This document shows positions 30,244 through 51,941 of a stretch of DNA of 64,000 nt, piece after piece. This DNA comes from Acidocella sp. (GTDB lineage: Bacteria; Pseudomonadota; Alphaproteobacteria; Acetobacterales; Acetobacteraceae). The DNA lies in the NCBI GenBank assembly GCA_965199045.1, contig CBDAQL010000004.1, positions 627 through 64,626 on the forward strand, read 5' to 3'. The notes under the pieces were generated by a model. That model was not told the DNA's origin. It saw only the letters and a program-made list of their open reading frames with translations, and searched no databases. Numbering within the stretch: position 1 is the stretch's first letter; every line of letters starts with the position of its first letter. A program made the translations under genes and the position numbers.

Positions 30244-30407
30244 GATATTCCCCGCTTCTTAAGGTATGTCAATCTATTTGGATGGTCCCCAGGCTAGCCA
30301 TTTATTGCCGCAGGCGAATGGATATTCGTTAAGCGTGACATGCGATAACGCATCAGCATGCCTCATGTCTATAAAATTATACCTATTTTAACAATTTTTT
30401 TGACGCA

Positions 30408-33240: not shown

Positions 33241-33245
33241 ATATT

Positions 33246-35732: not shown

Positions 35733-35889
35733 AGGGGGATGGGGCGAGTTCAGACGCGACGCGCGCCCAGGCCCGCTAATTGGAACTCAGCACTGCCCGA
35801 GGGGAATTGTTTCGATCAGCCGCTCACCGTAGCGGGTTGTTATTGATCTCCAGCGATGAGCGCGCGTAAAAATCGCCCGTCCAGATCGT

Positions 35890-36726
35890 CTATGTTTTGC
35901 GGTAGACTTTGATGTATTGAATCTGCATGACCTGCGGATCAGTCAAGCCAACGATCGGCCATCCGCCGCCTAGAGCCAGATCGACGATGACAGCCATGGG
36001 TTGGCGAAATTCCGGCAATGTTGGTGTCGACCAATAGGGAATGCGGTTAAAGTAGTAGGTGGTCCGCTGCGGTTCGATTAGGATTCCGAAATTGTTAAAC
36101 TGGCTCGACAGAATACCCCTGGATACGCTTACCACATGGCTGCGGCTTAAATGATCGACATTGTTTTTCCAAAGATGTTCGGTTGACCGGTAACTGGCTG
36201 GAAAAGCACCATAGAATTCGATGACGTCGAGCTCTGGCGCGGTTCCGGTATCGCCGGCGCTGACTAGCCAGAAGGCCGGCCAGACGCCGTGGCCAGCAGG
36301 CAGTCGCGCCCGCATTTCGAAATAGCCGTATTCCTGGGCGAACCCGCGCGGACCGACACCCTTGGCAGATTTCGAGCATAATAAACCTGAGTGCCATTGT
36401 CCTTTCGAATCTTTGTAGGCGGTAATGTTCAGGCCGTTCGGGCCCCGCGAAAACGCGCTACCGGGGCCTGGATTATCAAAGACGGCGTCACCGAAATCAC
36501 CGTTCCAGGGCGTATGGGCGATCCATCGCGTGGCCGGCCCGGTGGCGGAAATATCAAGGTTGGCAAAGTCTTCGTTGAAGCTGACTGTATAGTCTGAGAG
36601 ATCCAGTGCCGGCTTTTGCGCCCCGGATGCTGACATAGACGCATAACCTACCGCGACCGTGATGGCAGCTGCTATAGAAATTACCGATAAACGCCAGCGA
36701 GAAATCCGAACCTTTGCATGAGACAT
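35890..36726 (-). CDS. Secreted GH16 glycoside hydrolase (ExsH-like glycanase)
   Basis: Signal peptide; YGYFEMRARLP, GVWPAFWL and catalytic ELDVIE (ExDxxE). Confidence 0.88.
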   Translation of the reverse strand: MSHAKVRISRWRLSVISIAAAITVAVGYASMSASGAQKPALDLSDYTVSFNEDFANLDISATGPATRWIAHTPWNGDFGDAVFDNPGPGSAFSRGPNGLNITAYKDSKGQWHSGLLCSKSAKGVGPRGFAQEYGYFEMRARLPAGHGVWPAFWLVSAGDTGTAPELDVIEFYGAFPASYRSTEHLWKNNVDHLSRSHVVSVSRGILSSQFNNFGILIEPQRTTYYFNRIPYWSTPTLPEFRQPMAVIVDLALGGGWPIVGLTDPQVMQIQYIKVYRKT

Positions 36727-36838
36727 CGAAAAATCTCCTCAACACTGCTTTCTCACGCTAACTGCGCGGTGGCGGTGCCGATCGCTTCGCCTGGTATACC
36801 AATAAATTTACCATAATATTTATTGTGTCGCGCGGCGG

Positions 36839-37822
36839 CTAGAGAATTGCAGACGATCTGACCAGTCTTTCAAACGTTTGTTGATAATAAATTTTGCGGT
36901 GGAGAAATAGTTTGTCGCGCAGTTTTCGTAACCGGGCCCGCGTTTGTAACGCATCAAGCTGTTGCCGGCTATATTGCCGGATCGGGAGACCCAGCTTCTG
37001 CAACGGCGCGAAGGCATTGATATAGGTTTCGTGATAAGGATGAAAAGGCACCGTCCAGGGCTTATCTCCACCGGCAAAATGCAAAATCTGCGGTGGCATC
37101 TTGCATTTCATTCCCCACTCCAAATACGAGGTTGCAAAATTCCATTGCGGAGCAAGACGTACCCAACGGTGCTTCGCAACCGCGTTTAAAGCACTCTGGT
37201 CATGGTAGAGACAGCGCGCGGTATTATTAATAAAATAGGTGAACGCATCTGCGCAGACATCCCGCCAGGTCTGGGTGTCGGCGAGCAGGACGCCAGAACT
37301 GAAATAGCCGGCGTCGTGATCAAGCCCAAGGCCATCGAAATAGGCGCGGGTTTGCCGGCCGACTCGACCAAGCTCACGACGACGGAAATAATACCGATCT
37401 TCGGCGGCGCCGATAAAGCCCTGCGGCAGCGAAGCTTCAAGAAGTTTTAGAGGGTCTCCCACCGGCCAGGTATCACCGTCAAGATATAGGATGCGCTTGT
37501 AGATGTCCGGAACCACATCGAGCATGAAAAATCGGCCGAGCGCTGAGATTGGAACATGCGTTTTGTTGAATGCTTGATGATTGAAGCCGCTGAAATAATC
37601 GAAGCTGAGGTGATCCAGATGAATGCTATGGGATGATGCAAACCCCGCCATACGATTAAACGCGTCCACCGGAATATTGGTCGTGACGATCCTGACATCG
37701 GCGCGTGCGGGGGGCACCTTTCGCCTAATTTCTAGAGCGGCGGCCAATGTCGGTAATGCAAAGTCCAGATCGGTCACAAAGAAAATCGCGCGGTCCGGAC
37801 CGGATTTTTTGATTACGTTCAT
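36839..37822 (-). CDS. Glycosyltransferase family 8
   Basis: RILYLDGD, YFSSGVLL, HDQSALN and ILHFAGGDKPW. Confidence 0.88.
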   Translation of the reverse strand: MNVIKKSGPDRAIFFVTDLDFALPTLAAALEIRRKVPPARADVRIVTTNIPVDAFNRMAGFASSHSIHLDHLSFDYFSGFNHQAFNKTHVPISALGRFFMLDVVPDIYKRILYLDGDTWPVGDPLKLLEASLPQGFIGAAEDRYYFRRRELGRVGRQTRAYFDGLGLDHDAGYFSSGVLLADTQTWRDVCADAFTYFINNTARCLYHDQSALNAVAKHRWVRLAPQWNFATSYLEWGMKCKMPPQILHFAGGDKPWTVPFHPYHETYINAFAPLQKLGLPIRQYSRQQLDALQTRARLRKLRDKLFLHRKIYYQQTFERLVRSSAIL

Positions 37823-37976
37823 GGTATATGATTTGCTCGGTTTTGGATGATCAGATCAAGCCGGGACGAAGCCATCGCGTATCATCAATTAGAAGGATAG
37901 GCCTAGTATTATCAAATATAGGTATTACCCATTTGTTCGCTTGCGCACGCCATGGAATCGTCTCAGGAACGCTAGT

Positions 37977-39458
37977 ATGAGGAAGGGGCAGCAAGTCGAG
38001 CTACCAACCCGCCCAAGTGGTCGAAGAATTGCCATCGGGGCCGGTGCATTTGGGGCTGTGAGCATTTTCAAAATGCTATTGCAGGTCTTGACGCTGCCGT
38101 TGATGGCGCGGCTGCTCGGCCCATCGGAGTTTGGCCTCTATTCGATCGCGATCCCTATCGTTGCGGTTGTCGGTATGATGTCCGATGGCGGCCTGGGAAT
38201 GTCGTTGATGAAGGAGCCGGATAATTCTCCGGTTTGGTCGACGGCATTTTGGACCTTGCTGGGTGCCGGTATCGTGTTGGCCCTATCATTGACCGGGGTA
38301 GGATTTGTGCTGGGCGACGTCCTGCACCAACCGCGGCTGCCAGGTATCATTGCCGCGTTATCCGTGACCATTATACTGATGACGATCTCGGTGACGCCGG
38401 TTGCTAGACTGGATCGTCAAGGGCGGATCAGTATTGGAGCTGTTGCCGATCTGGTCGGCAATCTCCTTGGCGTTTGTCTCGGCATTACGCTGGCATTCCG
38501 TGGCGCCGGCGCCTGGAGCCTGGTGGGTCAATATGTGACGATCTTTTTGGTGCGTGCCGTAGTGCTGAACAGCGCGGCATTCAAAATGCCGGCGTTTGAG
38601 TTTCGGCCTTCGACACTTCGTTCTCACTTCGCGACGGGCGGGCTGATTGTAAGCGTGCGAATGTCCGATTTCGCCGGAAGAATGGTTGAAAGTGTTTGCT
38701 TGGGCCGTGGTCTTGGAACGGCCGCGGTCGGCATCTACGCGTTTTCTAATCAGCTGCCTAGGTTTTTCTGTGAATCGTTTTCCAATCCACTTTGGCTGGC
38801 CCTTTATATCCGGGCGCTAAGTAACGAGCATGCCAACATCGCCGCTTTACACCGGCAATTTTCACGGTTGCTAGGGATGATCTTGTTTCCGGCAGCAGCA
38901 TTGTTCCTGGTGACCGCGCCGAACCTGGTGCCGTTATTCCTGGGCAAAAAATGGTCGGTCGCGGCGCCCTTGCTGCCGGTTTTTTTGGTAGCCTACGCGA
39001 TGAATGTCATTGCATCCCAGGGCGGTGCGTTGCTGCTGGCTGATGATCGCTATCATCGCCAGCTTTGGTGTACGATCGGGCTCAGTATTGCGAAAATCGT
39101 TGTCGTCTGTCTTGGCCCCTGGATCGGGTTGGCTGGCGTTGCATATGGCGTCTCTTGCATGCACGCAGTTTATGCGGCGGCGATGATCCTAGCATCCGCA
39201 ACGGTCAGCGGCACCAGTCCGCTATTCCTCATCAGAAGCCTGGTTGGGCCTTTGGCCGCCAGCGTGTTTTCCGGAGCGGTGGCGTGGGCATTTCTGCGCT
39301 TTTGGGGCGATAATTTGGTGGGAGTGGCGTTGTGCCTCAGCGTCGGAATTCTGGGCTACGGTGCTGCCATCATTCTGTTCGATCGCAAGTACCTGGTCTC
39401 CGATGTCGCGGTTCTAAGGAATGTAATTGGGCGGCGGCGAACACTGCCCGCCGGTTGA
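37977..39458 (+). CDS. wzx: Wzx-type flippase (PST family)
   Basis: LMARLLGPSEFG and LGTAAVGIYAF; 12-14 TM segments. Start refined to ATG 37977. Confidence 0.85.
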   Translation: MRKGQQVELPTRPSGRRIAIGAGAFGAVSIFKMLLQVLTLPLMARLLGPSEFGLYSIAIPIVAVVGMMSDGGLGMSLMKEPDNSPVWSTAFWTLLGAGIVLALSLTGVGFVLGDVLHQPRLPGIIAALSVTIILMTISVTPVARLDRQGRISIGAVADLVGNLLGVCLGITLAFRGAGAWSLVGQYVTIFLVRAVVLNSAAFKMPAFEFRPSTLRSHFATGGLIVSVRMSDFAGRMVESVCLGRGLGTAAVGIYAFSNQLPRFFCESFSNPLWLALYIRALSNEHANIAALHRQFSRLLGMILFPAAALFLVTAPNLVPLFLGKKWSVAAPLLPVFLVAYAMNVIASQGGALLLADDRYHRQLWCTIGLSIAKIVVVCLGPWIGLAGVAYGVSCMHAVYAAAMILASATVSGTSPLFLIRSLVGPLAASVFSGAVAWAFLRFWGDNLVGVALCLSVGILGYGAAIILFDRKYLVSDVAVLRNVIGRRRTLPAG

Positions 39459-39623
39459 GCCAAGAACCGCGCGCGATGCGCGATTCCAGCCGTTACCAAA
39501 GGCGTGCCATGGCATTTTTTAGAGAGTCATGTTCGCTGAATAGTGGAGGAGAAAGTCGTCCGAGCCCGGTCTACGCCGAGAACATCCAGAAACTTATAAA
39601 CCTGGCTGGCGCCGGATTGATTG

Positions 39624-40775
39624 TTATTGCGCGCATAACTCTCTGAATAATTCGACATGACGCTTGGCGTAGTGGCGCGAGCTGAGGCCGGCTTCGGTGA
39701 GCCTGCGGCGGGAGTTTGCAATCAACGACTGCTGCAGCTCCGGATTGCGCGCGAGATGGCGTATGGCGCTCGCCATTTGCCGGGAATCGCCCGGATCGAC
39801 GTAGAGAACATCTTCTTCTTGAAAATAGGCTTCCAGGCCTCCCACATTCGTACTTATAACGGGCACTCCAAGAATGGCGGCTTCCTCGATGACAGTGATG
39901 CCGGAGGCATGGAAGTTCGGCTGTAGCGGGAGCACGAGCATGTCTGCCCACGCGAACTGGGAAAGCAGATCATCGTTATGCTGGACTTTAAGGACGCTGA
40001 TATTATCGTATTCGCCGCCTAATTTGTACTTGGTTGTAAGCAGACGAACTTCTATGTCTGTTTTGTCGCCGGTTGCGTCAATTAAAGTGGCCCAATCCCG
40101 ATGGCGGTCATTGCCAACTGATAGGACGCGGATTTTGCGCTCCTTGAATACTGGGCGCGGCAATGCGGGAAAGTTTGTGTTGATACCAAATTTTATGAAT
40201 TCGACGCGTGTCCGCGGGAATAGCGCAGCCGCGGATCCGGCGTTGAAGGGCGACAGGAATGTAAGAATATCCGCTTTGGCTAAAAGTCTCGTATAGAGCG
40301 CTTTGCGGAAATAATTGAGACGATGCCATTCATCGATCAACCATATCACCTGCCCTATAAGTTTCGGACGAGCGGCATGTTTGGAAATTGTCAACAGCCC
40401 AAGGACGGCGAGGGTTTGGGATTCCGTATGGGTCCACACCACGTCGGAGCGCAAGATCTCCGCGCGATTTCTCCAAGCATGGATAAAGTCGAAACCCAGG
40501 AAAAAACGCAAACCATAGCGCATGATTTTCTGAAGCGCATTTTCGGGATGGTCTTTCGAATAGATGACGGTGGCGCCAAATTGTGCTGCGTGATGGTAAC
40601 CGTAGGGGAACTCTTCGTTTAGGCCAAGAATTTTGCCGGCGCGCCAGTTTTGTTGCCACGTCCTCGCGTCATAGCCGTAGGCCACGTGAACATAGGCATT
40701 GAAGGGCGCCGCAGGCGCTTCGACAGGATCGGCAGACAAAGCCGCCAGTTGCTTAAGTTCTTGGAGGGCGGACAT
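39624..40775 (-). CDS. Glycosyltransferase family 4 (GT-B)
   Basis: SVGNDRHRD and ASGITVIEEAAILGVPVIST (EX7E-type region). Confidence 0.85.
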   Translation of the reverse strand: MSALQELKQLAALSADPVEAPAAPFNAYVHVAYGYDARTWQQNWRAGKILGLNEEFPYGYHHAAQFGATVIYSKDHPENALQKIMRYGLRFFLGFDFIHAWRNRAEILRSDVVWTHTESQTLAVLGLLTISKHAARPKLIGQVIWLIDEWHRLNYFRKALYTRLLAKADILTFLSPFNAGSAAALFPRTRVEFIKFGINTNFPALPRPVFKERKIRVLSVGNDRHRDWATLIDATGDKTDIEVRLLTTKYKLGGEYDNISVLKVQHNDDLLSQFAWADMLVLPLQPNFHASGITVIEEAAILGVPVISTNVGGLEAYFQEEDVLYVDPGDSRQMASAIRHLARNPELQQSLIANSRRRLTEAGLSSRHYAKRHVELFRELCAQ

Positions 40776-40948: not shown

Positions 40949-42367
40949 TCAGTTGGAAAGCTCACTTTGCGGGCCGGCTATCTGCCCATTGAAATTCAGG
41001 ACCTCGATTAAGGCGTCGATGTCCCGCGTTTCCGTGCGGCCATTTGGGACACAGATCCGAATGACATCCTCGCCCTCGAAGCTGGCGAGAGAAATCCAGA
41101 ATTGACCGGAACCGACAATTTCCTCGACAATTTGCTGGACCGGTTTGAAGCCTTCAGGCGGTGTGACGCATAACACGCCCAGCGCATTCGGATTTGCAGT
41201 TTTCCAATGTGTCGCTTCCAGACCGGTCCGCAGAAGATTGATCAGCATCAGCGTGTGTTCGACATGCTGAGCGTAGCCTTGCCAGCCTGATACCGACAGG
41301 TTCATAAAAAGCCGCAATCCTGAAAATCTGCGCGACCACAAAACTGAATTAGCATAGGGGTCTTGGGGCGACCCGCCGGCGGGCATAAAGGGCGCTGAGG
41401 TTCCAAATACCCGGTTCAGCACACCGGTCCTTTTGCTGATGAACATACCGCACGCCATAGTGGCCGCAAACCATTTATGTGCGTCTATGGTTACAGAGTC
41501 AGCAAGCTCAATCCCGGCCAGTTGAACGCGAGCGTGGCTGGATGCAATGGCAGCCGCCCCCCAAGCCGCATCTACATGAAACCATGCGCTGGCTTCGGCG
41601 GCAATATTTGCACAGTCGGCCAGCGGGTCCACCATGCCTGCTACCGTGGTACCCGCGGTACCCACGACCATTACTGGCAGCAGGCCGTTTTCAACATCGC
41701 TCGCCACCGCGTCGCGTAGTGCATCGCTGCTCATGCGGCCATGCCCATCCGTTTCGATCATTCGTACTGCAAGACGGCCGATACCTGCCTGGTGCGCAAT
41801 TTTATGCCAGGCGGCATGCGCATCTTGGGATATATATAGCGCCGGCGGCGCCCGGAACGCGCGGGCGCCATTTTGGCTGAATGCAGGGTTGAGTTCAGTT
41901 AGGGCACAGATCAGGGCAGTAAAATTTGCCTCGCTCCCACCATTTGTGAAATGCCCCGTACTGTCTAAGGGAAATCCAAGCTGACGGGCGACCTGCGCGA
42001 TGACATGGGCTTCAAGTGCGACGGCGGCCGGCGACGTGCTGGCCGAAGCCAGTTGGAGGTTAAATGAGGCGATGATTTGTTCCGCCAGCAATGAGGGTCC
42101 GGCGGGTGCTGCGTTGAACAGGCCAAAATAACGCGGATGCGTGATTTGGACATTGCCGTCCCGCATCCGCTCAACCAACCAGGGCAACAATTTCTGCAGT
42201 TGGACCGGTGCTTTAAAATCGAAATCTGAAAGTTCTCCGGCAAATTTTCGCGCGTCGAACTCCGGCGCCACTCGCCCATGCCGCATTTGAAGATGCATAT
42301 CCTCCAGCAACTCGCGGAGGAACTCTTCCATCAGTTTCTGGTCCTTCGGATCGGGAAACAAAGCCAT
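40949..42367 (-). CDS. Group II PLP-dependent amino-acid decarboxylase
   Basis: HPRYFG, TNGGSEAN, GTAGTT, WFHVDAAWG and the PLP lysine in DSVTIDAHKW. Start taken as ATG 42367. Confidence 0.88.
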   Translation of the reverse strand: MALFPDPKDQKLMEEFLRELLEDMHLQMRHGRVAPEFDARKFAGELSDFDFKAPVQLQKLLPWLVERMRDGNVQITHPRYFGLFNAAPAGPSLLAEQIIASFNLQLASASTSPAAVALEAHVIAQVARQLGFPLDSTGHFTNGGSEANFTALICALTELNPAFSQNGARAFRAPPALYISQDAHAAWHKIAHQAGIGRLAVRMIETDGHGRMSSDALRDAVASDVENGLLPVMVVGTAGTTVAGMVDPLADCANIAAEASAWFHVDAAWGAAAIASSHARVQLAGIELADSVTIDAHKWFAATMACGMFISKRTGVLNRVFGTSAPFMPAGGSPQDPYANSVLWSRRFSGLRLFMNLSVSGWQGYAQHVEHTLMLINLLRTGLEATHWKTANPNALGVLCVTPPEGFKPVQQIVEEIVGSGQFWISLASFEGEDVIRICVPNGRTETRDIDALIEVLNFNGQIAGPQSELSN

Positions 42368-42813
42368 GCGCAAATTTTTTGTAGTCTCACAATTCACGTT
42401 AGCGTCTCGCAATGGTGGTGGCGGCTGGCTCGGCGCCGTGTTCTGGCGCCCGTGATAATGCGGCAGTTTTGTTGTTATGCGGCGCGTATCCAGCGGAGAT
42501 GGCCACGATATCAGGCAACATAAAAAGCTCCCGGCGCTTTAGTTGGATGTAAGTCTGGTTGAAACAATGAAGCTGGATCCACGAGATACGACGAAATGCG
42601 ACGTTATTGATGCCGGAAATTGTCGGGTTTCTTCAACTTGACCAAAAGGAGAGGTTTCACGGCAATTTTATCTTAAGAGGTAGGCTTATACCCATCGGAC
42701 ATTCTCTCTAGACGAAAGGCGAACCGAGCGTCCTCAGCCTCTGCGGACCGTGAGAACGTGCGCTCTAGATCCTGCATCGCAGAGGTAACTTCGCAGATTG
42801 ATGATACCGTAGT

Positions 42814-42860: not shown

Positions 42861-44498
42861 CTAGGAAGCCTGTTTCAATAGTATTTGCTCGCAGCAGAGC
42901 AGACGGTATTTGAACGCGTCACGGAATGCGAGCAGGCAAGCACCCATTATGTCTGCCGCCACTCCGACTGTCGCCCAATGGTCCAACGCGGGCATTTCGA
43001 CGTCATGGCATTCGATAACGACGCGGGTCATCGGCGCCTCGCCTTCTCGCCGTCCCAGGTTGTGAGTTCGACAATGCAGCATGCGTAAGCCGGACAGTTC
43101 CGGAAAGCTTGGGCTTAACACGGCGTGCAAGGCCGCCTCCATCGCAGCCAGCAAATCCTTGCGTGTCATATCCGCCTTCTTGAACTCGCCGCCGATTTTG
43201 GCTTCGATGGCGGCACTGCAAAGTACGGAGACTTCGTTTTTATTTTTCCAGCCACGCATTTCGGTGACGCGGAAAGAAAGAATATCGAAAAGTGCCGGCT
43301 TGTCATCCAGCGTTTCGCGTGCGAGCAATTCGAAACTGGCTTCGGCGCCATCGAAACTCCAGCCTTCGAATTCGAGCATTTTTACCTGTTCGACAAGCTT
43401 TGCGAGTCGCGGATCATCGGCGGATAGGATGATGCCCAGTTGGGCCAAACGATTAAGCAGGTTGGCGCGGCCCGCCTGGTTGGAGACCAAAATACGACGC
43501 CGATTGCCAACCAACTCTGGCACAACATGTTCATAGCTGCTGCTGTCGCGGGTAACTGCCGCGGCATGCAAACCCGCTTTATGCGCGAAAGCGCTTTCGC
43601 CGACATATGGGGCATGTCTATTGGGGACACGGTTCAACCGCTGGTCCAGCGCCCGGCTTATTTCAGTGAGGCGACGCAGCCCGTCCTCACTCACACCGGT
43701 TATATATCCGAGTTTCAGGATCAAGGTTGGGATCAATGTTGTCAGGTTGGCGTTGCCGCAACGCTCGCCTAATCCGTTCAACGTGCCCTGGATCATCCTG
43801 GCGCCGGCAGCTACCGCTGCGAGGCTGCCAGCAACCGCGGTTTCTGTATCATTATGCGTGTGAATGCCAATGGCGGCTCCGGGCAGGGCGGCCACGACCT
43901 CACTGACAATGCGGGAAATCTGCTCGGGGAGGGTGCCGCCATTGGTGTCGCATAACACCAGCCACGCAGCGCCATCCGCTAGCGCACGCTGCAGGCAGGA
44001 TAAGGCATATGCTGGATTGCGTAGATAGCCGTCGAAGAAATGCTCGGCGTCGAACAAGACCTCGTGGCCGAAGCCGGCGGCCTCCGCTACGGCGCTGCCG
44101 ATCAGGTCCAGGTTTTCCAAAGGCGTCACGCCAAGCGCAATTTCTGCGGCAAGATCGGAGGCTTTGCCAACCAGGCAAATTGTCGCCGTTCCGGCTTTTA
44201 GTACGGCACCGAGACCAGGGTCGTTGGAGGCGCTACGCCCTGGTCGTCGCGTTGCGCCAAAGGCTGTTAGCCTGGCATGACGGAACTGCGGAGGATTAGC
44301 GAAAAACGCGTCGTCCGTTGGGTTGGCGCCTGGCCAACCAGCCTCAATGTAATCGATACCGAGTTGATCTAGTTCGGTTGCGATTATCTGCTTGTCCAAG
44401 GTGGAGAAGTCGACCCCTTGTGTCTGCGCGCCGTCACGCAGCGTCGTATCGTAAAGAACGATGCGGCGCGCTGCCGGCAGCATGGCGGCTTTGACCAT
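42861..44498 (-). CDS. cimA: Citramalate synthase homologue (LeuA/CimA, DRE-TIM family)
   Basis: LYDTTLRDGAQ, YIEAGWPGANP, LCDTNGG, IHTHND, GERCGNANL and AFAHKAGLH; starts 3 nt after the NRPS stop. Confidence 0.85.
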   Translation of the reverse strand: MVKAAMLPAARRIVLYDTTLRDGAQTQGVDFSTLDKQIIATELDQLGIDYIEAGWPGANPTDDAFFANPPQFRHARLTAFGATRRPGRSASNDPGLGAVLKAGTATICLVGKASDLAAEIALGVTPLENLDLIGSAVAEAAGFGHEVLFDAEHFFDGYLRNPAYALSCLQRALADGAAWLVLCDTNGGTLPEQISRIVSEVVAALPGAAIGIHTHNDTETAVAGSLAAVAAGARMIQGTLNGLGERCGNANLTTLIPTLILKLGYITGVSEDGLRRLTEISRALDQRLNRVPNRHAPYVGESAFAHKAGLHAAAVTRDSSSYEHVVPELVGNRRRILVSNQAGRANLLNRLAQLGIILSADDPRLAKLVEQVKMLEFEGWSFDGAEASFELLARETLDDKPALFDILSFRVTEMRGWKNKNEVSVLCSAAIEAKIGGEFKKADMTRKDLLAAMEAALHAVLSPSFPELSGLRMLHCRTHNLGRREGEAPMTRVVIECHDVEMPALDHWATVGVAADIMGACLLAFRDAFKYRLLCCEQILLKQAS

Positions 44499-44501
44499 GG
44501 C

Positions 44502-47330
44502 CTATACGACCGCAGGCGCGGGTGCTGGGGCGCCGGACAATCTTTCCGATTGCGTTGCTTGCGATAGGTGACTGGTCTGCTGGCTTGCGGCCCGCGAATT
44601 GATCGTGCAGGTCAGATCGTTTGCAGGCACTTTGGCCAACGCGTCGTGACGCTTGAGAAGGACCTCGATCTGTTCTGATAAGAAAACGGCATGCTGATCG
44701 GTCAAAATTGAAAGATGATCACCCTCGGATTGTATAATTTCAAAGCCGCCACTGAAGAGATTGCGCCATCCATGGGCGCGGTCGTAGCCAGGCAGCATAT
44801 CCACATCGGCCTTGGCGCGTATGAGCACGCCCTTCGCATCGAGCGAGGTTGGCCGCCACCGCGCGCCGATCAGTTTCGCCATTCGATAGACGATCCACAT
44901 CCCGACCGGATTACTTTTGCTATCGAAATAGCCGGAGGGCCGGTCGGCCTCGGTCTCGTTCCGGGCGGTGTGCTGCCGGCGGTGACTGATGATATCGAGA
45001 CGATATCCTATGGCGGTCGGAATAGACGATACCTGCCAGCAAATAAGGCGCCAGGCCTGCGCGGCGGCCTTGCCAAGACGCGCCATGGAGGCACCCGCAT
45101 CGGCAGGCCGCAGGGATAGGCCGCTGATGGTTTTCCATCCGCTGCGAATGACGGTTGCAACCTTGCTCAACCCGCTCCAGGTAAAGGCCCGCGAGTCAAT
45201 AAGGAGCAGGAAGGCAGCGTGCCCGCCGGCGCGCTGCAACGCATGCGCGGCTTCAAATGCGATTTTTCCGCCGAGCGAATAACCGACGATAACGCAAGGC
45301 GCCTTGCCGGCGTGGTCGATTAGCGCGCGGCCGAAGGGTTCGCTAAGCTCCTCCATGGTCGGCATATTCTTTTTATCCGCGATCCCGACCGCCTCGATCC
45401 ATTGCACCGGCAGCAATGCGTCGATTAGAAACACGCTCCGATTTTCAGCGATCAACTCGGCCAGCCGATATTCGTCTGGCCGCGCACCCATGAAATAGAT
45501 CGGCAAGCCGTTATTGCCACTTTGCAGAGGGATCACCTGCGTCATACCCGTGCTCAAGCGGTGCCGGGATAGCTCCGCCGCCAGCGCCGCGATGGTTGGC
45601 CGCTGGAAGAACACCGGTATACTCACACGCATGTTCAACGCCTTGTTGATTTCGTTGATCATGCGCAGCGCTAGCAGCGAATGACCGCCTAAATCGAAAA
45701 AATTATCCTGCGGCTCAACCTCGGGAAGCTCCAGCATTTCCATCCAGATGCCGGCGAGCAGTTGCTCAATGGGGGTGACGGGTTTGGCATATTCCGTGTT
45801 TGCTTGCGCCACCCGCAGCTGCGGTGCCGGCAGCGCCTTGCGGTCAACCTTGCCGCTTGGCGTTAAAGGAAAAGCGATCAGCGGCACAAACGCAGCGGGG
45901 ATCATGTAGCCCGGGAGCCGTTCGCCAAGGAACTGACGAAGCTCCTGGGTTGAGATATCCTGGCCGTGGGCCGGCACGAAATAAGCGGCGAGATTTTGCA
46001 TTCCGTCGGTCCCGGCATAGGCGATGGCGACGCTTCGTTCGATATCCGGATGGCTTAGCAGAACACTCTCGATCTCCCCGAGCTCGATGCGATGACCGCG
46101 TATTTTGACCTGATGATCGATGCGTCCCAGAAACTCCAGCTTGCCGTCGCCCAAACGTTTTACCAGGTCGCCGGTGCGGTACATGATCGCCCCCGGCTCG
46201 GCGAAGGGGTCTTTGATGAAGCGTTCGGCATTCAGCTCCGGCCGGTTGAGATAGCCGCGTGCAACCGCGCCGCCGCCGATATAAAGCTCGCCCGGAACCC
46301 CCAATGGGACCAGCTGGGACGCGCTGTCCAACACGTAAAAGCGGGTATTAGGGATGGGCCGTCCGATGACCACTGGGCAGCCTGTTTCTACCTTGGCGAC
46401 CGCGGACCATACGGTGGTCTCGGTGGGTCCATACATGTTCCATAGCGTGCGGCAACGGCTGAGCAGCTGTTCGGCCAGGACCGTACCCCAGGCTTCGCCG
46501 CCGCAAAGGATTTTCAGATCCGCGGCGCCTTGCCAACCGGCGTCCAGCAGCATCTGCAAGGTGGCCGGGGTTGCCTGCATAACGGTGACGCCGGCGTCTT
46601 CGATCAGCTGCCGCAATGCGCCGCCATCACGCGCGGTTTCGCTGGAGGCAATAACGGCGGAGCCGCCAGTGCTCAGTGGCAGGAAAATCTCCAGCAGCGA
46701 GATATCGAAAGCTATGGTGGTAAGCGCCAGCATTCTGTCGGTGGCAAGAAATCCAGGCCGGCGCTGCATCGCGGTAAGCATGTCGACGACACCGCCGTGC
46801 TTGACCTGAACGCCCTTCGGGTTGCCGGTCGAGCCGGACGTGTAAATCACATAGGCAAGATTATCGGCTGTGAGATCGCTGGACGGCGCATCACCGTTTG
46901 GCGCCGAAGCAGCCTGCAGGTGCTGCTCCGCAGCGCTATCAAAAATATCGTCCACCAGCAGCAGCCGGGCCTTGCTTGCCGGCAATAAGCGTTGCGATTT
47001 GCGTTCGGTAAGCACGGCCAGCGGTTTTGCATCTTCCAGCATGTAGGCGAGACGCTTATCCGGCAAAGCCGGGTCCAGCGGCACATAGGCGCCACCGGCC
47101 TTCAGCACACCCAGCATGCCGGCAATCATGTCGGGCGACCGGTCGATACAGAGCCCGACCAACGTTTCCGGTCCCACGCCAATCGCGCGCAATTCCTGCG
47201 CGATCGCTTCGGCGCGCTGGTTCAGCGCGCGATAGCTCAGCCTGGACGATCCAAAGCTTAGCGCCTCGGCATCGGGGGTACGTGATAACTGAGCTTCGAA
47301 CAGTCTATGAATAAGCTTCATCTTCTTCAT
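44502..47330 (-). CDS. NRPS A-PCP-TE module (glycine-type A domain)
   Basis: YTSGSTGNPKG, AFDIS, YGPTE, YRTGD, QVKIRGHRIELGEIE, PSGKVDR; PCP LGGHSL; TE GYSLGG. Confidence 0.93.
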   Translation of the reverse strand: MKKMKLIHRLFEAQLSRTPDAEALSFGSSRLSYRALNQRAEAIAQELRAIGVGPETLVGLCIDRSPDMIAGMLGVLKAGGAYVPLDPALPDKRLAYMLEDAKPLAVLTERKSQRLLPASKARLLLVDDIFDSAAEQHLQAASAPNGDAPSSDLTADNLAYVIYTSGSTGNPKGVQVKHGGVVDMLTAMQRRPGFLATDRMLALTTIAFDISLLEIFLPLSTGGSAVIASSETARDGGALRQLIEDAGVTVMQATPATLQMLLDAGWQGAADLKILCGGEAWGTVLAEQLLSRCRTLWNMYGPTETTVWSAVAKVETGCPVVIGRPIPNTRFYVLDSASQLVPLGVPGELYIGGGAVARGYLNRPELNAERFIKDPFAEPGAIMYRTGDLVKRLGDGKLEFLGRIDHQVKIRGHRIELGEIESVLLSHPDIERSVAIAYAGTDGMQNLAAYFVPAHGQDISTQELRQFLGERLPGYMIPAAFVPLIAFPLTPSGKVDRKALPAPQLRVAQANTEYAKPVTPIEQLLAGIWMEMLELPEVEPQDNFFDLGGHSLLALRMINEINKALNMRVSIPVFFQRPTIAALAAELSRHRLSTGMTQVIPLQSGNNGLPIYFMGARPDEYRLAELIAENRSVFLIDALLPVQWIEAVGIADKKNMPTMEELSEPFGRALIDHAGKAPCVIVGYSLGGKIAFEAAHALQRAGGHAAFLLLIDSRAFTWSGLSKVATVIRSGWKTISGLSLRPADAGASMARLGKAAAQAWRLICWQVSSIPTAIGYRLDIISHRRQHTARNETEADRPSGYFDSKSNPVGMWIVYRMAKLIGARWRPTSLDAKGVLIRAKADVDMLPGYDRAHGWRNLFSGGFEIIQSEGDHLSILTDQHAVFLSEQIEVLLKRHDALAKVPANDLTCTINSRAASQQTSHLSQATQSERLSGAPAPAPAVV

Positions 47331-50300
47331 CCACCATCCAGGCTGATAGGAGTTGCTGCCGTTCCGCCTCGGTCAGCATGGGCAATTCATTTAGTTTTTG
47401 GTCCGGGTCGGCGGCGGCAGCTTGCAAAAGCACCGTCAGATGGCCCAGCAGACGTTCGATCCGGTTGGCGTCGAACAGATCCGTGCTGTATTCGACTTCG
47501 GCCGTGATTTTGCTTCCCGCATCGATGAGGTTGATCGTCAAATCGAATTTCGAGGTTTTGGAATGCGCCAGCAATGGCTCCGTTATAAGCCCGGGGAAGC
47601 CAATGAATTGCGGGTGGTCGTCGCGATCCCGCCAGTTCAGCATAACCTGAAAGACCGGCGCGTAACTAAGATCCCGTTGCGGCCGAAGGGCTGCGACAAC
47701 CTCACTGAACGGCGCCGCGCGATGGGAATAGACAGCCGCAACATCGTGACGCACCTGCGCGAGGAAGTCACGGAATGTGGTGCTGGCATCAGGCTGGGTG
47801 CGCAGCACATGGGTTTCGAGTAGAAAACCGATTAATGGGCGCAGTTCCGGCAACTCGCGATCGGCAATGGGGATGCCGATTAGAATATCGTCCTGCATGG
47901 TATAACGGTACATCAGCGTGCTCAGGCCCGCCGCGAATACGGCAAACATTGTTGCCTTGAGCTGCCGGCATAATTCTCGAACATCTGCCGCCAGCGCCGG
48001 TTCTAATTCAAACAGCTGCTTATGGCCGCGGAAGGAGCAGATTGCCGGGCGCGGCCTGTCCGTTGGTTGATCGAGCAATGCAGGAGAGCCGCGCAAACGG
48101 ACGCTCCAGAAAGCGAGCGCGTCATCGAAGTTCTGTTCTCGCTGCCACACCGCGTAATCGCCGTGCTGAATTGGCAAAGGCGGCAGCGCCGGAGGCTCGC
48201 CTTTTATGCCAGCTTCATAGAGCGCCCCGAGCTCACGCCAAAGAACACCGATCGAGGCGCTATCGCAAATAATATGGTGCAACATCAAAATCACAGCGTG
48301 ATCGTCAGTGCCGATTTCCACGATTGTGACCCGCAGCCCCGGCTCGACACCGAGATGGAATGGCCGGACCGGCTCCTCCGTCAACAAAGCCGCTAATTTG
48401 GCGTCGCGTTGATGTGCCGGCAGCTGCAACAGGCTGACCGTTTTTAATTTGATCGGCCAGCTTTCATGAACTTCGGCTTCCGGCCGGCCTTTCTTCAGCG
48501 CGATCGTGCTACGCAAAATTTCGTGGCGTTCGATAATGGTATTGAACGCATCCTGCAGCGCCGCGATGTTCAACTTGCCCTTGAGCCGCACCGCTTCGGC
48601 CTCGTTATATACCGGCGCTCCGGTGTTGAATTGCGCCATGAAAAAAATGCGCTCCTGAGCTATTGTGAGCGGGCAGGAGCGGCCGCGTGCGGCTACCGGA
48701 ATGCGTTTTTGAACAGCAAGCGGACTGGGTTGGGGCGAAGCCGGGTGTGCTGGTCTGTTCAGATGCTTTCCAATAACCTGAGCCAGTTGGCCAACTGTCG
48801 GGTTTTCGAAGAAATCGGTCAGTGAAAGCACTACCGATTGGCGGTCGCGCAACCGCGAAAGGAACTGGATCGCCTGCAAGGATTGCCCGCCACAGGCGAA
48901 AAAATTGGTCTCCGGATCAATATCCAACGGGCCCAGAAGTTCCTGCCAAAGCTCACCGACCAGGCTTTCAAGTTGCCGGCGGCCTGCCTGCTGCACCGCT
49001 GACGTTGCTGGTGCGTCTGTTGCTTGCGCGGCTGTTGCCTGCGCGTCTGTTGCCTGCATGCCCGGACCAACCTGCTTTGCATGCCTGCCGGCGCGCTGTT
49101 CCGCGTCTTCCACCAGATGCAGGCGCTGGATTTTTCCGGAAGGTCCCTTCGGTAGATTTGGGACCAGGTAAATACGCGTCGGCGTTTTGAAAAAGCCCAG
49201 ATTATGCTCACAATGCGCGAGCAATTCGCGTTCATCGCAGTTGGCCCCGGCCCGCAGTACTGCGTACGCCACCAAGTCCTCGCCGACATACCGGTCCGGA
49301 ATGCCGACGGCGGCTGCTTCCAACACGGCCGGATGCATTTCCAGTACTTCATCGATCTGCTTCGGCGCGATGTTCATGCCGGCCTTGATGATCAATTCTT
49401 TGACCCGTCCGATCAGGAACAGGTAGCCGTCTTTGTCTTGATAACCGAGATCGCCGGTATGCAGCCATCCCTCAGGGTCCAGCGCCGCCGCGGTGCCGAC
49501 GGGGTCATTGTAATAGCCTTGCATCATCCCATCGCCGCGAAAAAGAATGTCGCCGGTGGCGCCCGCCGGTAGCAGGCTACCGGCGCGATCGACGATTTTT
49601 ATTTCAAAGCCCCAGGGGAGCCCCGGCGATCCTATCTTGTTCTGCCCCGGAGGTGCTGGATTTGAGAAAACATTGCCGGCTTCTGAGCATCCCATCGCCT
49701 GGATCAGCGGCAGATCAAACTTTACAATGAATTCGCGATGCAGGGACGGGGATAACGGGCCGGAGGAACTCCGAATAAAACGAATGCGGCTAAATGCGGC
49801 ACTTCGGCTGTCTGCCCGTGGATCTTTCCAATCCAGCAGCTGAGAGACAATGGTGGGCACCACGGCCGACCAGGTACAACCGTAATCGCCAAGCAAATCC
49901 CAATATTCAGCGATGGCGAAGCCGTGCGGAACCACTACCGATCCACCGCTCATCAACGTCGGGATCAATGTCACGCATTCCGCATTGATATGGTACATCG
50001 GTAGCACCAGGAGAGAGCGATCGGATCGTTCGAGCTGGTGGGCCCGGATAGAGTTTCTGCCATGCGCCAGAATGGACTTATGGGTGTGTACCGCCCCTTT
50101 GGGCTGGCCGGTGCTTCCAGACGTATAAATAATCATCGCGGCATCATTCGCCTCGATGGCTGGCGCGTCTCTCTTCGAATGACCAGTGCTGCCTAAGCCG
50201 GCAGGCCTATCAACACTGGCCGGCACAACGATGATTTGCGATTTGATAAGTTTAAGGACTTCCGCGATCAGATCTTGGTATTTTTCAGAGACGAATACAA

Positions 50301-50697
50301 CGCTCGCTTGACAATGATCCAGCGTATAGGCCAGCTGTGAAAGGCCGGCGCGGACGTTCAAAGGCACTACGACAAAACCGCAATACATGGCGCCCAGAAA
50401 CAGCTGGGCGGTATGCACGCCATTATCCATCATCAGCGCGATCCGGGCCTGCGGTTCCAAGCCAAGGCTAAGAAGCGACGGATAAAGCAGATCAGCTTGT
50501 TGCTTTAGTTCGTTGAAAGTAAGTTGATGTCCGGTCTCAGGGCTCACTAAAAAAACATCGTCGGGCTGCAATGTCGACATTGCATTTAGTAATTGCGGTA
50601 CCGTATCAAGATGTTCTATGCCCGCTGCAGTCATGGGGTGTCTCTTCATTGTCCGATAACGATTTTGCTGGATAAGCGGCAACTTAACGCTGTGCAA
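47305..50697 (-). CDS. Acyl-CoA-ligase-like adenylation-PCP-condensation starter protein (start may be ATG 50634)
   Basis: YTSGSTGQPKG, LPMYHINA, GWLHTGDLG, GRVKELIIKAGMNI, PSGKIQR; PCP CGGQSL; C domain LTIAQER..HHIICDS..SKFDL. Confidence 0.92.
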   Translation of the reverse strand: MHSVKLPLIQQNRYRTMKRHPMTAAGIEHLDTVPQLLNAMSTLQPDDVFLVSPETGHQLTFNELKQQADLLYPSLLSLGLEPQARIALMMDNGVHTAQLFLGAMYCGFVVVPLNVRAGLSQLAYTLDHCQASVVFVSEKYQDLIAEVLKLIKSQIIVVPASVDRPAGLGSTGHSKRDAPAIEANDAAMIIYTSGSTGQPKGAVHTHKSILAHGRNSIRAHQLERSDRSLLVLPMYHINAECVTLIPTLMSGGSVVVPHGFAIAEYWDLLGDYGCTWSAVVPTIVSQLLDWKDPRADSRSAAFSRIRFIRSSSGPLSPSLHREFIVKFDLPLIQAMGCSEAGNVFSNPAPPGQNKIGSPGLPWGFEIKIVDRAGSLLPAGATGDILFRGDGMMQGYYNDPVGTAAALDPEGWLHTGDLGYQDKDGYLFLIGRVKELIIKAGMNIAPKQIDEVLEMHPAVLEAAAVGIPDRYVGEDLVAYAVLRAGANCDERELLAHCEHNLGFFKTPTRIYLVPNLPKGPSGKIQRLHLVEDAEQRAGRHAKQVGPGMQATDAQATAAQATDAPATSAVQQAGRRQLESLVGELWQELLGPLDIDPETNFFACGGQSLQAIQFLSRLRDRQSVVLSLTDFFENPTVGQLAQVIGKHLNRPAHPASPQPSPLAVQKRIPVAARGRSCPLTIAQERIFFMAQFNTGAPVYNEAEAVRLKGKLNIAALQDAFNTIIERHEILRSTIALKKGRPEAEVHESWPIKLKTVSLLQLPAHQRDAKLAALLTEEPVRPFHLGVEPGLRVTIVEIGTDDHAVILMLHHIICDSASIGVLWRELGALYEAGIKGEPPALPPLPIQHGDYAVWQREQNFDDALAFWSVRLRGSPALLDQPTDRPRPAICSFRGHKQLFELEPALAADVRELCRQLKATMFAVFAAGLSTLMYRYTMQDDILIGIPIADRELPELRPLIGFLLETHVLRTQPDASTTFRDFLAQVRHDVAAVYSHRAAPFSEVVAALRPQRDLSYAPVFQVMLNWRDRDDHPQFIGFPGLITEPLLAHSKTSKFDLTINLIDAGSKITAEVEYSTDLFDANRIERLLGHLTVLLQAAAADPDQKLNELPMLTEAERQQLLSAWMVDEEDEAYS
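49000..49059. repeat. Four imperfect 15-bp tandem repeats encoding the (QATDA)-type linker between A and PCP
   Basis: Units tgacgttgctggtgc / gtctgttgcttgcgc / ggctgttgcctgcgc / gtctgttgcctgcat. Confidence 0.75.
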
Positions 50698-50886: not shown

Positions 50887-51576
50887 TCATGAGATCGGTA
50901 AAATAAGCCCGGAGTGTATGATATCACCGATTACGACAAAACTGCCCGCCAAGTGGAACGGATCAAAAAAAGGCGTTGATAATGAAGGTTTTGGAATGGC
51001 GCGGAACGATCCGGACGTGATGTCGATGGCAGTGACTTCAACATCCGTGAAGTCGAACCGGAATTTAAGTAAAGGATACAGGCATTTGAAAATCGTCTCC
51101 TTGACGGAAAAAATGATCGTCGTCAGCAATGGTTCGCTGATCGGTAGCCTTGATAGGTTTTGGTATTCGAGGGGCGTTGTGATCAGCGGCGCTATCTCTT
51201 TGGCGGTTGCGGATGACATTAGTGTTTCAGTGTCCAGGCCAAGGCTTCTTGCGCGTGACTCCCAGGCAACAGCTGCAAAGGCGAAGCCATTTGAATGTGT
51301 TATGGATCCGACAATACCAGACGGCCATACCGGACATCCGTCTTGCCCCGACGCAACGTTTAGCGCCGCTGCGCCTAATCGGATCAGCGCTTCCTGCGCA
51401 CAAAGTCGGCCGCTCACGTAATCCGCCTGTCGCCGCCCGACAGCATCTTTAAGCCGGGACGGCAGTGGGACTTCCGCCGGTAAAGTTTTTAATTCCCAAT
51501 ATCTTATACCGGTATGGACGACGAAGTCCGGAAACAGCTTTGGAATATCGCTTGGTGATAGGCTCAACTTGTTCAT
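50887..51576 (-). CDS. 4'-phosphopantetheinyl transferase (EntD/Sfp-type)
   Basis: RRQADYVSGRLCA, PVWPSGIVGSITHS, LGLDTE and FSVKETIFK. Start refined to ATG 51576. Confidence 0.9.
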   Translation of the reverse strand: MNKLSLSPSDIPKLFPDFVVHTGIRYWELKTLPAEVPLPSRLKDAVGRRQADYVSGRLCAQEALIRLGAAALNVASGQDGCPVWPSGIVGSITHSNGFAFAAVAWESRARSLGLDTETLMSSATAKEIAPLITTPLEYQNLSRLPISEPLLTTIIFSVKETIFKCLYPLLKFRFDFTDVEVTAIDITSGSFRAIPKPSLSTPFFDPFHLAGSFVVIGDIIHSGLILPIS

Positions 51577-51941
51577 CGTATTTCGCTTCAAACGAGCAGA
51601 TATTATTATAGCTGCAACCGCATGTTTTAAGACCCATCTCGCTGATGCGCGATAAATGAAGGAGAGGCAAGGGGTGCCGGGCGCGCGGCCCGCGCCATCA
51701 AAGCTACCAAACCTTAGGTCCGGCCTGCGCGCCCATCGCATCAATCACCGGTGCCCATTAAGTATGCTTTGCCTTGCACGCGGCCGTCTGTTTTGCGCAG
51801 ACAATCTACTTGTTTTGCGCGCTCAATCTGCCGGAGTCGCAGTAATACTTTTAGGCAGCTTGCCTGCCATTATCGAATACGTAGGCTGATTAAGCTTCTT
51901 GGTAAATCGCGAAACCTATTCAGTTCGGAATTCATACCGTA

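What the first reader, a model, noticed from the sequence alone, without database searches (positions are those of the whole stretch)
42861..44498. CimA homologue coupled to the NRPS has lost the allosteric GxGPV motif
Seen: catalytic TIM-barrel motifs are intact, but the regulatory domain reads KADMTRKDLLAAMEAAL where CimA/LeuA normally have AEGxGPVxALxxAL. The gene starts 3 nt after the NRPS stop. Knowledge: that motif forms the Ile/Leu feedback site. Inference: a feedback-insensitive paralogue dedicated to supplying a 2-alkylmalate starter.
Basis: partly seen in the sequence, partly recalled or inferred. Interest (0 to 1): 0.62.

Follow-up and report, generated by a model that had tools for sequence, protein, structure and literature searches.

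The report
NRPS-linked citramalate synthase without feedback site
An Acidocella-like bacterium carries, on an 83-kb contig, an extra citramalate synthase that keeps its catalytic core but has lost the conserved amino-acid sensing site, and it travels with a small peptide-synthetase cassette inside a slime-polysaccharide gene cluster; this is a bacterial example of the rule, known from plants, that primary-metabolism enzymes lose feedback control when recruited into specialised pathways.

Summary
The gene lies on the minus strand (44498..42861, 545 aa) and is a full-length TIGR00977 citramalate synthase (527 bits, cut-off 450). Where all 83 motif-bearing relatives read AEG-N-G-P-V-N-A-L-D, it reads MTRKDLLAAME.

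The loss goes beyond the motif. The protein keeps 185/202 conserved catalytic positions but only 39/80 conserved regulatory-domain positions. Pfam LeuA_dimer scores 17 bits, below threshold. The βββα-βββα fold is still predicted and is still under purifying selection.

The 37 motif-less homologues form one clade nested within normal CimAs. Every member with enough flank, except one basal member, sits beside the same cassette:
- a PPTase;
- an oxalyl-CoA-ligase-like A-T-C module;
- an A(Gly)-T-TE module.

The cassette usually lies inside an exopolysaccharide locus. None of 80 canonical cimA loci has an NRPS neighbour.

The genome has a chromosomal ilvA and a normal leuA. 22 of 24 congeners have no cimA. 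The gene is therefore accessory, not the isoleucine enzyme.

The TIM barrel shows no clade-specific change, so the product is probably plain citramalate. Whether citramalate is the NRPS starter is unproven.

Verdict: a new bacterial variant of a known evolutionary theme, of moderate interest.

The parts
42861..44498 (-). cimA-like gene (P0001, 545 aa): a TIGR00977-type citramalate synthase with an eroded regulatory domain
   Evidence: TIGR00977 scores 527 bits against a cut-off of 450, over positions 2-519 of 526. Pfam finds HMGL-like and HCS_D2. The start codon lies 3 nt after the NRPS stop.
43629..44462 (-). Catalytic TIM barrel (residues 13-290) with intact LRDG, HTHND and GERCGN motifs
   Evidence: PF00682 scores 145 bits. 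185 of 202 conserved catalytic-region positions are retained, the same as in canonical sisters. There is no clade-specific change here. Model pLDDT is mostly above 90.
43374..43604 (-). Subdomain II (HCS_D2, residues 299-375). It carries the two substitutions that mark the NRPS-linked group: G308A (FAHKAGLH) and D340N (VSNQAGR).
42906..43346 (-). Degenerate LeuA_dimer regulatory domain (residues 385-531). The fold is kept but the conserved residues are half lost.
   Evidence: PF08502 scores 17.4 bits, below the 24.9 cut-off, yet is collinear over 3-129 of 131 positions. 39 of 80 conserved positions are kept. AlphaFold predicts βββα-βββα with pLDDT 86-96. dN/dS is 0.22 here against 0.07 in the catalytic part.
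43128..43178 (-). Site of the lost effector motif: KADMTRKDLLAAMEAAL (residues 441-457), aligned to MTVAEGNGPVNALDTAL. It lies at the β3-to-α1 junction of the first βββα unit.
42921..42977 (-). Second eroded unit: WATVGVAADIMGACLLAFR, aligned to the canonical WSTVGVSxNVIDASxxALH
44502..47330 (-). NRPS 2 (P0121, 942 aa): A-T-TE. The specificity code is DILQLGMVWK (glycine type). The TE region is long.
   Evidence: Pfam hits. The code was read from FDISLLE, VMQAT, ILCGG, NMYGPTE and TTVWS.
47305..50697 (-). NRPS 1 (P0122, 1130 aa): a starter adenylating domain like an acyl-CoA ligase, then T and C
   Evidence: Pfam hits. The closest solved structures are oxalyl-CoA synthetases 6qjz, 5ie0 and 8aff. 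The pocket reads I-N-S-S-G-C-N-K, against V-H-C-S-A-M-H-K in AtAAE3.
50887..51744 (-). Sfp/EntD-type phosphopantetheinyl transferase
   Evidence: 4PPT_N and ACPS hits. A PPTase is present in the cassette in L094, L095, L097, L098 and L093.
40949..42412 (-). Group II PLP-dependent decarboxylase, downstream of cimA-like after a 448-nt gap. It is not part of the conserved core.
   Evidence: PF00282 scores 182 bits. It was seen only in the window and in L005, and is absent in L094-L098.
29452..40775 (.). Flanking Wzx/Wzy-type exopolysaccharide genes: LuxR regulator, a 480-aa unknown, Wza-like exporter, Wzc-like kinase, GH16, GT8, Wzx flippase and GT4
51942..53060 (+). Acyltransferase-3 family membrane protein on the other flank of the cassette
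   Evidence: PF01757 hit. The same family flanks the cassette in L096 and L098.

Best explanation
The gene encodes a pathway-dedicated (R)-citramalate synthase. It descends from an ordinary Acetobacteraceae-type CimA and was captured into a mobile cassette. The cassette comprises a PPTase, an oxalyl-CoA-ligase-like A-T-C module, an A(Gly)-T-TE module and the CimA-like gene. It lives inside exopolysaccharide loci.

The catalytic machinery is unchanged, so the enzyme most likely still joins acetyl-CoA to pyruvate. The C-terminal LeuA-type regulatory domain is kept as a folded, probably dimer-stabilising, module. It has lost the conserved effector-binding residues: the G-P-V-x-A-L loop/helix start and the second S-x-N-V-I-D-A-S unit. 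The enzyme should therefore no longer be shut off by isoleucine.

Translational coupling to the NRPS (a 3-nt gap) ties its expression to the assembly line. The enzyme would supply citramalate as a building block for a small acyl-glycine product that probably belongs to the polysaccharide pathway. An alternative building block is 2-oxobutyrate, made from citramalate by the host LeuCD/LeuB.

Shown by sequence and comparison:
- family membership;
- motif and domain erosion;
- a single origin of the loss;
- cassette synteny;
- dispensability for isoleucine.

Inferred:
- loss of feedback inhibition;
- citramalate as the product;
- which NRPS step consumes it.
For: Family membership and catalytic core:
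- The protein is a full-length TIGR00977 equivalog hit.
- The catalytic motifs are invariant.
- It keeps 92% of conserved catalytic positions, against 93% in canonical sisters.
- Only G308A, D340N and T442A are clade-specific relative to the sister group, and none lies in the TIM barrel.

Erosion of the regulatory domain:
- 49% of conserved regulatory positions are kept, against 94-95% in canonical sisters.
- Column entropy is 1.53 in the regulatory domain against 0.55 in the TIM barrel for the motif-less clade. In canonical CimAs the values are 0.82 and 0.79.
- The dN ratio of regulatory to catalytic part is 2.8-3.9, against 0.3-2.1 in canonical pairs. ω of the regulatory domain is still 0.22.
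- LeuA_dimer scores 17 bits, against 74-88 in canonical relatives.
- The fold is retained and aligns with full-length M. tuberculosis LeuA.

Single origin:
- The motif-less sequences form one clade nested in canonical CimAs.

Cassette synteny:
- The cassette is seen in L093, L094, L095, L096, L097, L098 and L184 plus the window.
- 0 of 80 canonical loci have an NRPS neighbour.

Dispensability for isoleucine:
- ilvA and a canonical leuA are chromosomal.
- 22 of 24 congeners lack cimA.
- Cassette hosts G016 and G041 also have no second cimA and have ilvA-like genes.

Published support:
- The LeuA-type domain of Leptospira CimA binds isoleucine (PMC13381585, citing Zhang et al. 2009).
- R529H/G532D(/L535V) mutations in the regulatory region of C. 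glutamicum IPMS remove leucine inhibition (PMC8709942).
- Plant CMS, MAM and IPMS3 lost the R-region on recruitment to specialised metabolism (PMC7826400).
Against: - No assay has been done, so loss of inhibition rests on sequence alone.
- For TIGR00977-type CimAs I found no solved regulatory domain. A sequence search of PDB found none. The ligand contacts of the motif are therefore extrapolated from LeuA and LiCMS.
- The regulatory domain is still under purifying selection (ω 0.22-0.37), so it does something.
- A Binataceae NRPS-PKS has the same starter-domain pocket.
- Its genome has no TIGR00977 gene. This argues against citramalate being the obligatory starter acid.
- One basal motif-less member (P0037) is not NRPS-linked.
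Confidence: 0.6

Rival explanations
1. The enzyme's purpose is an isoleucine-insensitive bypass to 2-oxobutyrate. Citramalate would be converted by the host LeuCD/LeuB. The 2-oxobutyrate, or a derivative, would then be the acid loaded by the starter domain, or would be consumed elsewhere in the pathway. This parallels the apple citramalate pathway.
For: The host has leuA, and hence a leucine pathway. Its ilvA has a C-terminal regulatory domain (TIGR01127), so normal 2-oxobutyrate supply is presumably feedback-limited. The apple precedent is PMC7826400. The starter pocket is small and polar, which is compatible with a short 2-oxo or 2-hydroxy acid.
Against: No leuCD or leuB copies lie in or near the cassette. 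Nothing distinguishes this reading from direct use of citramalate.
Confidence: 0.15
2. The enzyme has changed its 2-oxoacid substrate and makes another 2-alkylmalate.
For: G308A lies in the conserved FAHKGGLH active-site loop and D340N in subdomain II. Both are fixed in 35 of 37 clade members. IPMS-family enzymes recruited in plants often changed specificity (PMC7826400).
Against: There is no clade-specific substitution in residues 10-290. All TIM-barrel differences from distant CimAs are shared with the canonical sister group. The TIGR00977 score remains above the equivalog cut-off.
Confidence: 0.12
3. The regulatory domain was not simply inactivated. It was retuned to a new effector, such as the pathway product, or to docking with the NRPS.
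For: The domain is retained at full length in all 37 members, with ω below 1. Several residues are invariant: L461, P466, R492, W508, T510 and G512.
Against: The former pocket positions are highly variable within the clade: entropy 1.74-1.82, against 0.34-0.53 in canonical CimAs. Only one regulatory position (T442A) is newly fixed. No new motif has replaced the old one. The retained invariants are also invariant in canonical CimAs, so they are likely structural.
Confidence: 0.1
4. It is the organism's ordinary isoleucine-pathway citramalate synthase, and the sequence oddities are neutral drift.
For: It is the only TIGR00977 gene in the genome. No PF00585-type threonine dehydratase is present.
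Against: A TIGR01127 ilvA scoring above its cut-off is chromosomal. 22 of 24 congeners have no cimA. The gene lies on an 83-kb contig inside an EPS/NRPS cluster. 41 of 80 conserved regulatory positions are lost, while canonical enzymes keep about 95%.
Confidence: 0.03

Closest known systems
(R)-citramalate synthase CimA of the TIGR00977 type (Geobacter sulfurreducens type; canonical alphaproteobacterial CimAs such as that of Rhodovastum atsumiense, P0027)
   Same: It has the same three-part architecture and a full-length HMM match above the equivalog cut-off. The catalytic residues are identical. It is 64-68% identical to the nearest canonical relatives.
   Different: The effector motif and half of the conserved regulatory-domain positions are lost. 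G308A and D340N are fixed. The gene sits next to an NRPS in an EPS locus rather than in a housekeeping context, and the host makes 2-oxobutyrate through IlvA.
Plant IPMS-family enzymes recruited to specialised metabolism: apple MdCMS, Brassicaceae MAM synthases, tomato IPMS3 (PMC7826400)
   Same: A primary-metabolism 2-oxoacid:acetyl-CoA condensing enzyme is recruited to a specialised pathway and loses end-product control.
   Different: The plant enzymes deleted the R-region outright, and mostly changed substrate preference. Here the domain is retained, still folds and is still under purifying selection. Only its conserved site has decayed, and the substrate pocket is unchanged. The plant enzymes belong to the LeuA branch, not TIGR00977.
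Leptospira interrogans citramalate synthase (LiCMS), with its isoleucine-binding LeuA-type domain, and M. tuberculosis LeuA
   Same: The same fold families are present. The model aligns over about 580 columns with full-length MtLeuA, including leucine-bound 3fig. PF08502 is the domain shown to bind isoleucine in LiCMS (PMC13381585).
   Different: Identity is only 18-26%. The sequence of the TIGR00977 regulatory domain finds no solved relative. The window's domain falls below the Pfam threshold.
IPMS homologues inside NRPS clusters that homologate amino acids (HphA-type, for example in anabaenopeptin clusters, PMC8402340; recalled from general knowledge)
   Same: An IPMS/CMS-family gene sits inside a non-ribosomal peptide cluster and supplies a non-standard building block.
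   Different: Those systems bring their own isomerase and dehydrogenase (HphCD/HphB-like) and feed an amino-acid A domain. Here no such partners are present. The amino-acid module is glycine-specific, and the other loading domain is a small-acid ligase.

Membership tests
TIGR00977 citramalate synthase (CimA) | Full-length match to the equivalog HMM above its curated cut-off | tested here: met
   The score is 527.1 bits against a cut-off of 450, over residues 13-535 and profile positions 2-519 of 526.
TIGR00977 citramalate synthase (CimA) | Intact DRE-TIM catalytic residues (LRDG, HxH, GERxGN, FAHKxGxH) | tested here: met
   All are present and lie on columns invariant across 70 homologues. The one change is G308A in FAHKGGLH.
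TIGR00977 citramalate synthase (CimA) | LeuA-type regulatory domain with the conserved G-P-[VI]-x-A-L effector loop | tested here: not met
   PF08502 scores 17.4 bits, below 24.9. The motif is replaced by RKDLLAAM. 39 of 80 conserved positions are kept.
TIGR00977 citramalate synthase (CimA) | Role as the first step of threonine-independent isoleucine synthesis | tested here: not met
   ilvA is present. The gene is absent from 22 of 24 congeners. It sits in an NRPS/EPS context.
TIGR00977 citramalate synthase (CimA) | Condensation of pyruvate with acetyl-CoA to (R)-citramalate | not testable with these tools
   This is inferred only from the TIM barrel being unchanged relative to canonical sisters.
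Feedback-released IPMS/CMS-family enzymes of specialised metabolism (MAM, MdCMS, IPMS3) | Derived from a primary-metabolism enzyme by duplication or transfer | tested here: met
   The motif-less clade is nested in canonical CimAs and is sister to P0010-P0013.
Feedback-released IPMS/CMS-family enzymes of specialised metabolism (MAM, MdCMS, IPMS3) | Physical loss of the R-region | tested here: not met
   The domain is full length (385-531), predicted to fold, and has ω of 0.22. Only its conserved residues have decayed.
Feedback-released IPMS/CMS-family enzymes of specialised metabolism (MAM, MdCMS, IPMS3) | Insensitivity to the end-product amino acid | not testable with these tools
   An enzyme assay is needed.
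Feedback-released IPMS/CMS-family enzymes of specialised metabolism (MAM, MdCMS, IPMS3) | Dedicated to a specialised pathway (co-location or co-expression) | tested here: met
   8 of 8 di-modular NRPS loci with enough flank carry it, against 0 of 80 canonical loci.
HphA-type homologation cassettes in NRPS clusters | Accompanying isomerase and dehydrogenase genes (LeuCD/LeuB homologues) in the cluster | tested here: not met
   No aconitase-family or IPMDH-family gene was found among the annotated ORFs between 29 and 62 kb of the window.

The most novel reading that the evidence does not exclude
The CimA-like enzyme belongs to a widespread, undescribed class of small NRPS cassettes. Each has a small-acid ligase starter with the pocket I-N-S-S-G-S-N, plus a glycine module. 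The cassettes work inside exopolysaccharide loci, and their product, a citramalate-derived acyl-glycine, would be attached to or released with the polysaccharide. In this reading the deregulated citramalate synthase is carried only by hosts that lack a native citramalate pathway, as seen so far in Acidocella-like hosts.
Probability: 0.25. Interest if true: 0.7.

Novelty: new variant of a known kind. Interest (0 to 1): 0.5.

Why it matters
Three reasons:
- It extends a rule established in plants to bacteria, through a different mechanism. The rule is that IPMS/CMS enzymes lose feedback control when recruited into specialised metabolism. Here the effector site erodes in place while the domain is kept, instead of the domain being deleted.
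- It offers natural, probably feedback-resistant citramalate synthases for engineering citramalate, 2-oxobutyrate, propanol or methacrylate routes.
- It marks an orphan NRPS family that recurs in exopolysaccharide loci and has an unknown product. One dedicated precursor enzyme now gives a concrete handle for labelling and knock-out experiments.

Tried and rejected
- A search for a second cimA in the genome found only this gene and leuA.
- PF00585 threonine dehydratase is absent. This first suggested the gene might be essential for isoleucine. The idea was rejected once a TIGR01127 ilvA was found.
- A megablast of the cluster against PLSDB plasmids gave only short NRPS-motif matches.
- A sequence search of PDB with a canonical TIGR00977 regulatory domain found no solved relative. 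Ligand contacts could not be mapped residue by residue.
- Literature searches for a citramalate synthase coupled to an NRPS, or for NRPS genes in Acidocella EPS loci, found nothing relevant.
- The idea that the starter domain loads oxalate was rejected. 5 of the 7 pocket residues that vary among these ligases (all but the universal Lys500) differ from AtAAE3, including His319, one of its two oxalate-specific residues.
- The idea that citramalate must be the starter acid was weakened by the Binataceae locus.
- The gene is not a decaying pseudogene. It has no stops, a catalytic ω of 0.07, and 37 intact relatives.
- Whether contig C4 is a plasmid was not established. No replication genes were looked for.
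Full report
**What is there.** The finding's coordinates hold one ORF on the minus strand, 44498..42861 (545 aa, P0001).
- It matches the NCBIfam equivalog model for citramalate synthase, TIGR00977, over its whole length: 527 bits against a cut-off of 450.
- Pfam finds the HMGL-like TIM barrel and the post-barrel HCS_D2 subdomain. The LeuA_dimer regulatory domain is missed at default thresholds.
- The upstream gene (47330..44502) is an A-T-TE NRPS. Its stop TAG is followed by gcc and then the ATG of the cimA-like gene, so the '3 nt' statement is exact.
- Further upstream lie an A-T-C NRPS (50697..47305) and an Sfp-type PPTase (51744..50887).

**The observation.** An alignment with the closest homologues shows that canonical relatives read MTVAEGNGPVNALDTALRKAL. 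P0001 reads KKADMTRKDLLAAMEAALHAVL at residues 440-461.
- Of the 120 best homologues, 83 have G-x-G-P-[VIL] and 37 do not.
- The truly universal core is G-P-[VIF]-x-A-L. Rhodobacterales CimAs read DRGPVNAL.
- None of the 37 motif-less sequences has G-P at that place.
- The genome's own LeuA keeps GDGPVDA.
I took positions at least 90% conserved in canonical CimAs. P0001 keeps 185/202 of these in the catalytic part, which is 92%; canonical sisters keep 93%. In the regulatory domain it keeps only 39/80, which is 49%; sisters keep 94-95%.
- The second unit of the domain, GVSxNVIDAS, reads GVAADIMGAC.
- LeuA_dimer scores 17.4 bits, against 74-88 bits in canonical proteins. Other clade members show intermediate values of 22-49 bits.

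**Is the domain dead?** An AlphaFold model has mean pLDDT 85.
- It predicts the two βββα units with pLDDT 86-96.
- The former motif sits at the junction of strand 438-446 and helix 449-461.
- The whole model aligns with full-length M. tuberculosis LeuA, including the leucine-bound form.
- Nei-Gojobori estimates for own against P0002 give ω = 0.07 for the catalytic part and 0.22 for the regulatory domain.
- The dN ratio of regulatory to catalytic part is 2.8-3.9 in the motif-less clade. In seven canonical pairs it is 0.3-2.1.
- Column entropy tells the same story: 1.53 against 0.55 in the clade, and 0.82 against 0.79 in canonical CimAs.
- No new conserved motif replaces the old one. Only T442A is newly fixed in the domain.

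The domain is therefore relaxed but not free. The simplest reading is a retained structural or dimerisation module whose ligand site has decayed.

**Evolution and context.**
- In a maximum-likelihood tree the 37 motif-less sequences form one clade. The tree needs one change, SH-aLRT is 86, and 0 of 500 label shuffles are as low. The clade is sister to canonical P0010-P0013 and close to the Rhodovastum enzyme.
- Gene neighbourhoods were read for P0006, P0009, P0019, P0020, P0014, a same-genus genome (G016) and L184. All show the same A-T-C plus A-T-TE synthetase, split or fused, directly beside the cimA-like gene. A PPTase usually accompanies them.
- P0002's contig ends just upstream of the gene.
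- One basal member, P0037, has a half-decayed motif (GDDPV) and is not NRPS-linked.
- The canonical sister P0012 is not NRPS-linked.
- None of 80 canonical cimA loci from reference genomes has an NRPS hit in its flanks.
- The cassette is repeatedly embedded among polysaccharide genes such as flippase, GTs, Wza/Wzc, GH16 and acyltransferase-3. In the window these span 29452-53060.

**Is it needed for isoleucine?**
- The genome has four contigs and 3.5 Mb. The window lies on an 82.8-kb contig.
- By LeuA identity of 92-94% the organism is Acidocella-like.
- The genome has no second TIGR00977 gene.
- It has a chromosomal TIGR01127 ilvA scoring above its cut-off and a normal leuA.
- Only 2 of 25 genomes of the genus, this one and G016, have any TIGR00977 match. 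Both matches are motif-less and NRPS-linked.
- Cassette hosts G016 and G041 likewise have no second cimA and have ilvA-like genes.

The gene is therefore accessory. It does not refute the idea.

**What it makes and for what.**
- Relative to the canonical sister group, the clade has no fixed substitution in residues 10-290. Only G308A, D340N and T442A are clade-specific. Plain citramalate from pyruvate is therefore the most likely product.
- Module 2 has the glycine code DILQLGMVWK, read. This agrees with an earlier first-reader note.
- The starter adenylating domain is most similar to oxalyl-CoA synthetases.
- The published oxalate pocket of AtAAE3 is V215 H216 C288 S289 A313 M314 H319 K500 (PMC8905533). 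The aligned residues here are I N S S G C N K. This pocket is roomier and still polar, and it lacks His319, one of the two oxalate-specific residues. It fits a small hydroxy- or oxo-acid, and citramalate or 2-oxobutyrate are candidates.
- Caveat: the same pocket occurs in a Binataceae NRPS-PKS that also lies beside polysaccharide-export genes. That genome has no TIGR00977 gene. The link 'CimA product = starter acid' is therefore not established.

**Comparison with what is known.**
- The LeuA-type domain of Leptospira CimA binds isoleucine (PMC13381585).
- Regulatory-region mutations R529H/G532D(/L535V) free C. glutamicum IPMS from leucine inhibition (PMC8709942). That these residues fall in the GxGP motif is my recollection and was not checked here.
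- Apple CMS, MAM synthases and tomato IPMS3 lost the whole R-region when recruited to specialised metabolism (PMC7826400).
- The present case is the same theme in a bacterium, in the TIGR00977 branch. It proceeds by erosion rather than deletion, without a visible change of substrate pocket, and is tied to an NRPS in an EPS locus.
- I found no paper describing this cassette.

**Limits.**
- No enzyme data exist for this protein.
- No solved TIGR00977 regulatory domain was found.
- The cassette's product is unknown.
- I did not establish whether contig C4 is a plasmid.

Noticed in passing
window 29452-53060; loci L005, L094, L095, L096, L097, L098, L186: The small NRPS cassette is nested in Wzx/Wzy-type exopolysaccharide loci in every context read. 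A distant Binataceae NRPS-PKS with the same starter module sits beside Poly_export, AAA_22, CbiA-kinase, DegT and GT2 genes. The product may belong to the polysaccharide pathway.
   Followed up: partly
window 47305-50697 (residues about 237-342 of P0122): The starter adenylating domain is oxalyl-CoA-synthetase-like. At the AtAAE3 oxalate-pocket positions it reads I-N-S-S-G-C-N-K, and the signature is strictly conserved in eight orthologous loci (only the sixth residue varies: S in the other seven loci, C here). The acid it loads is unknown.
   Followed up: partly
window 40949-42412: A group II PLP decarboxylase (similar to DABA or Asp decarboxylases) follows cimA-like after a 448-nt gap. It is present only in the window and in the closest relative (L005), so it is a lineage-specific addition to the cassette.
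   Followed up: no
window 44502-45400 (C-terminal about 340 aa of P0121): The thioesterase region is about 90 aa longer than a usual TE. Pfam matches only positions 40-104 of the TE model. It may be an atypical release or transfer domain.
   Followed up: no
L093 13319-15879 (same-genus genome G016): The first NRPS gene of the cassette is split into several ORFs in this genome. This could be a frameshift or an assembly error. The adjacent cimA-like gene is intact and nearly identical to P0020.
   Followed up: no
genome contig C4:75425-76339 (outside the window): A CitE/HpcH-like lyase lies about 31 kb from the cimA-like gene on the same contig, among catabolic genes. By my own reading of the translated sequence (not checked against a profile library), it belongs to the family that includes malyl- and citramalyl-CoA lyases.
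   Followed up: no
P0026, P0037 (L099): Two basal members of the motif-less clade keep G308 and have half-decayed motifs (ANDPVEAL, GDDPVGAL). P0026 also keeps D340, while P0037 has T there. P0037 lies among sugar-metabolism genes without an NRPS. These are possible intermediates in the loss of regulation.
   Followed up: partly
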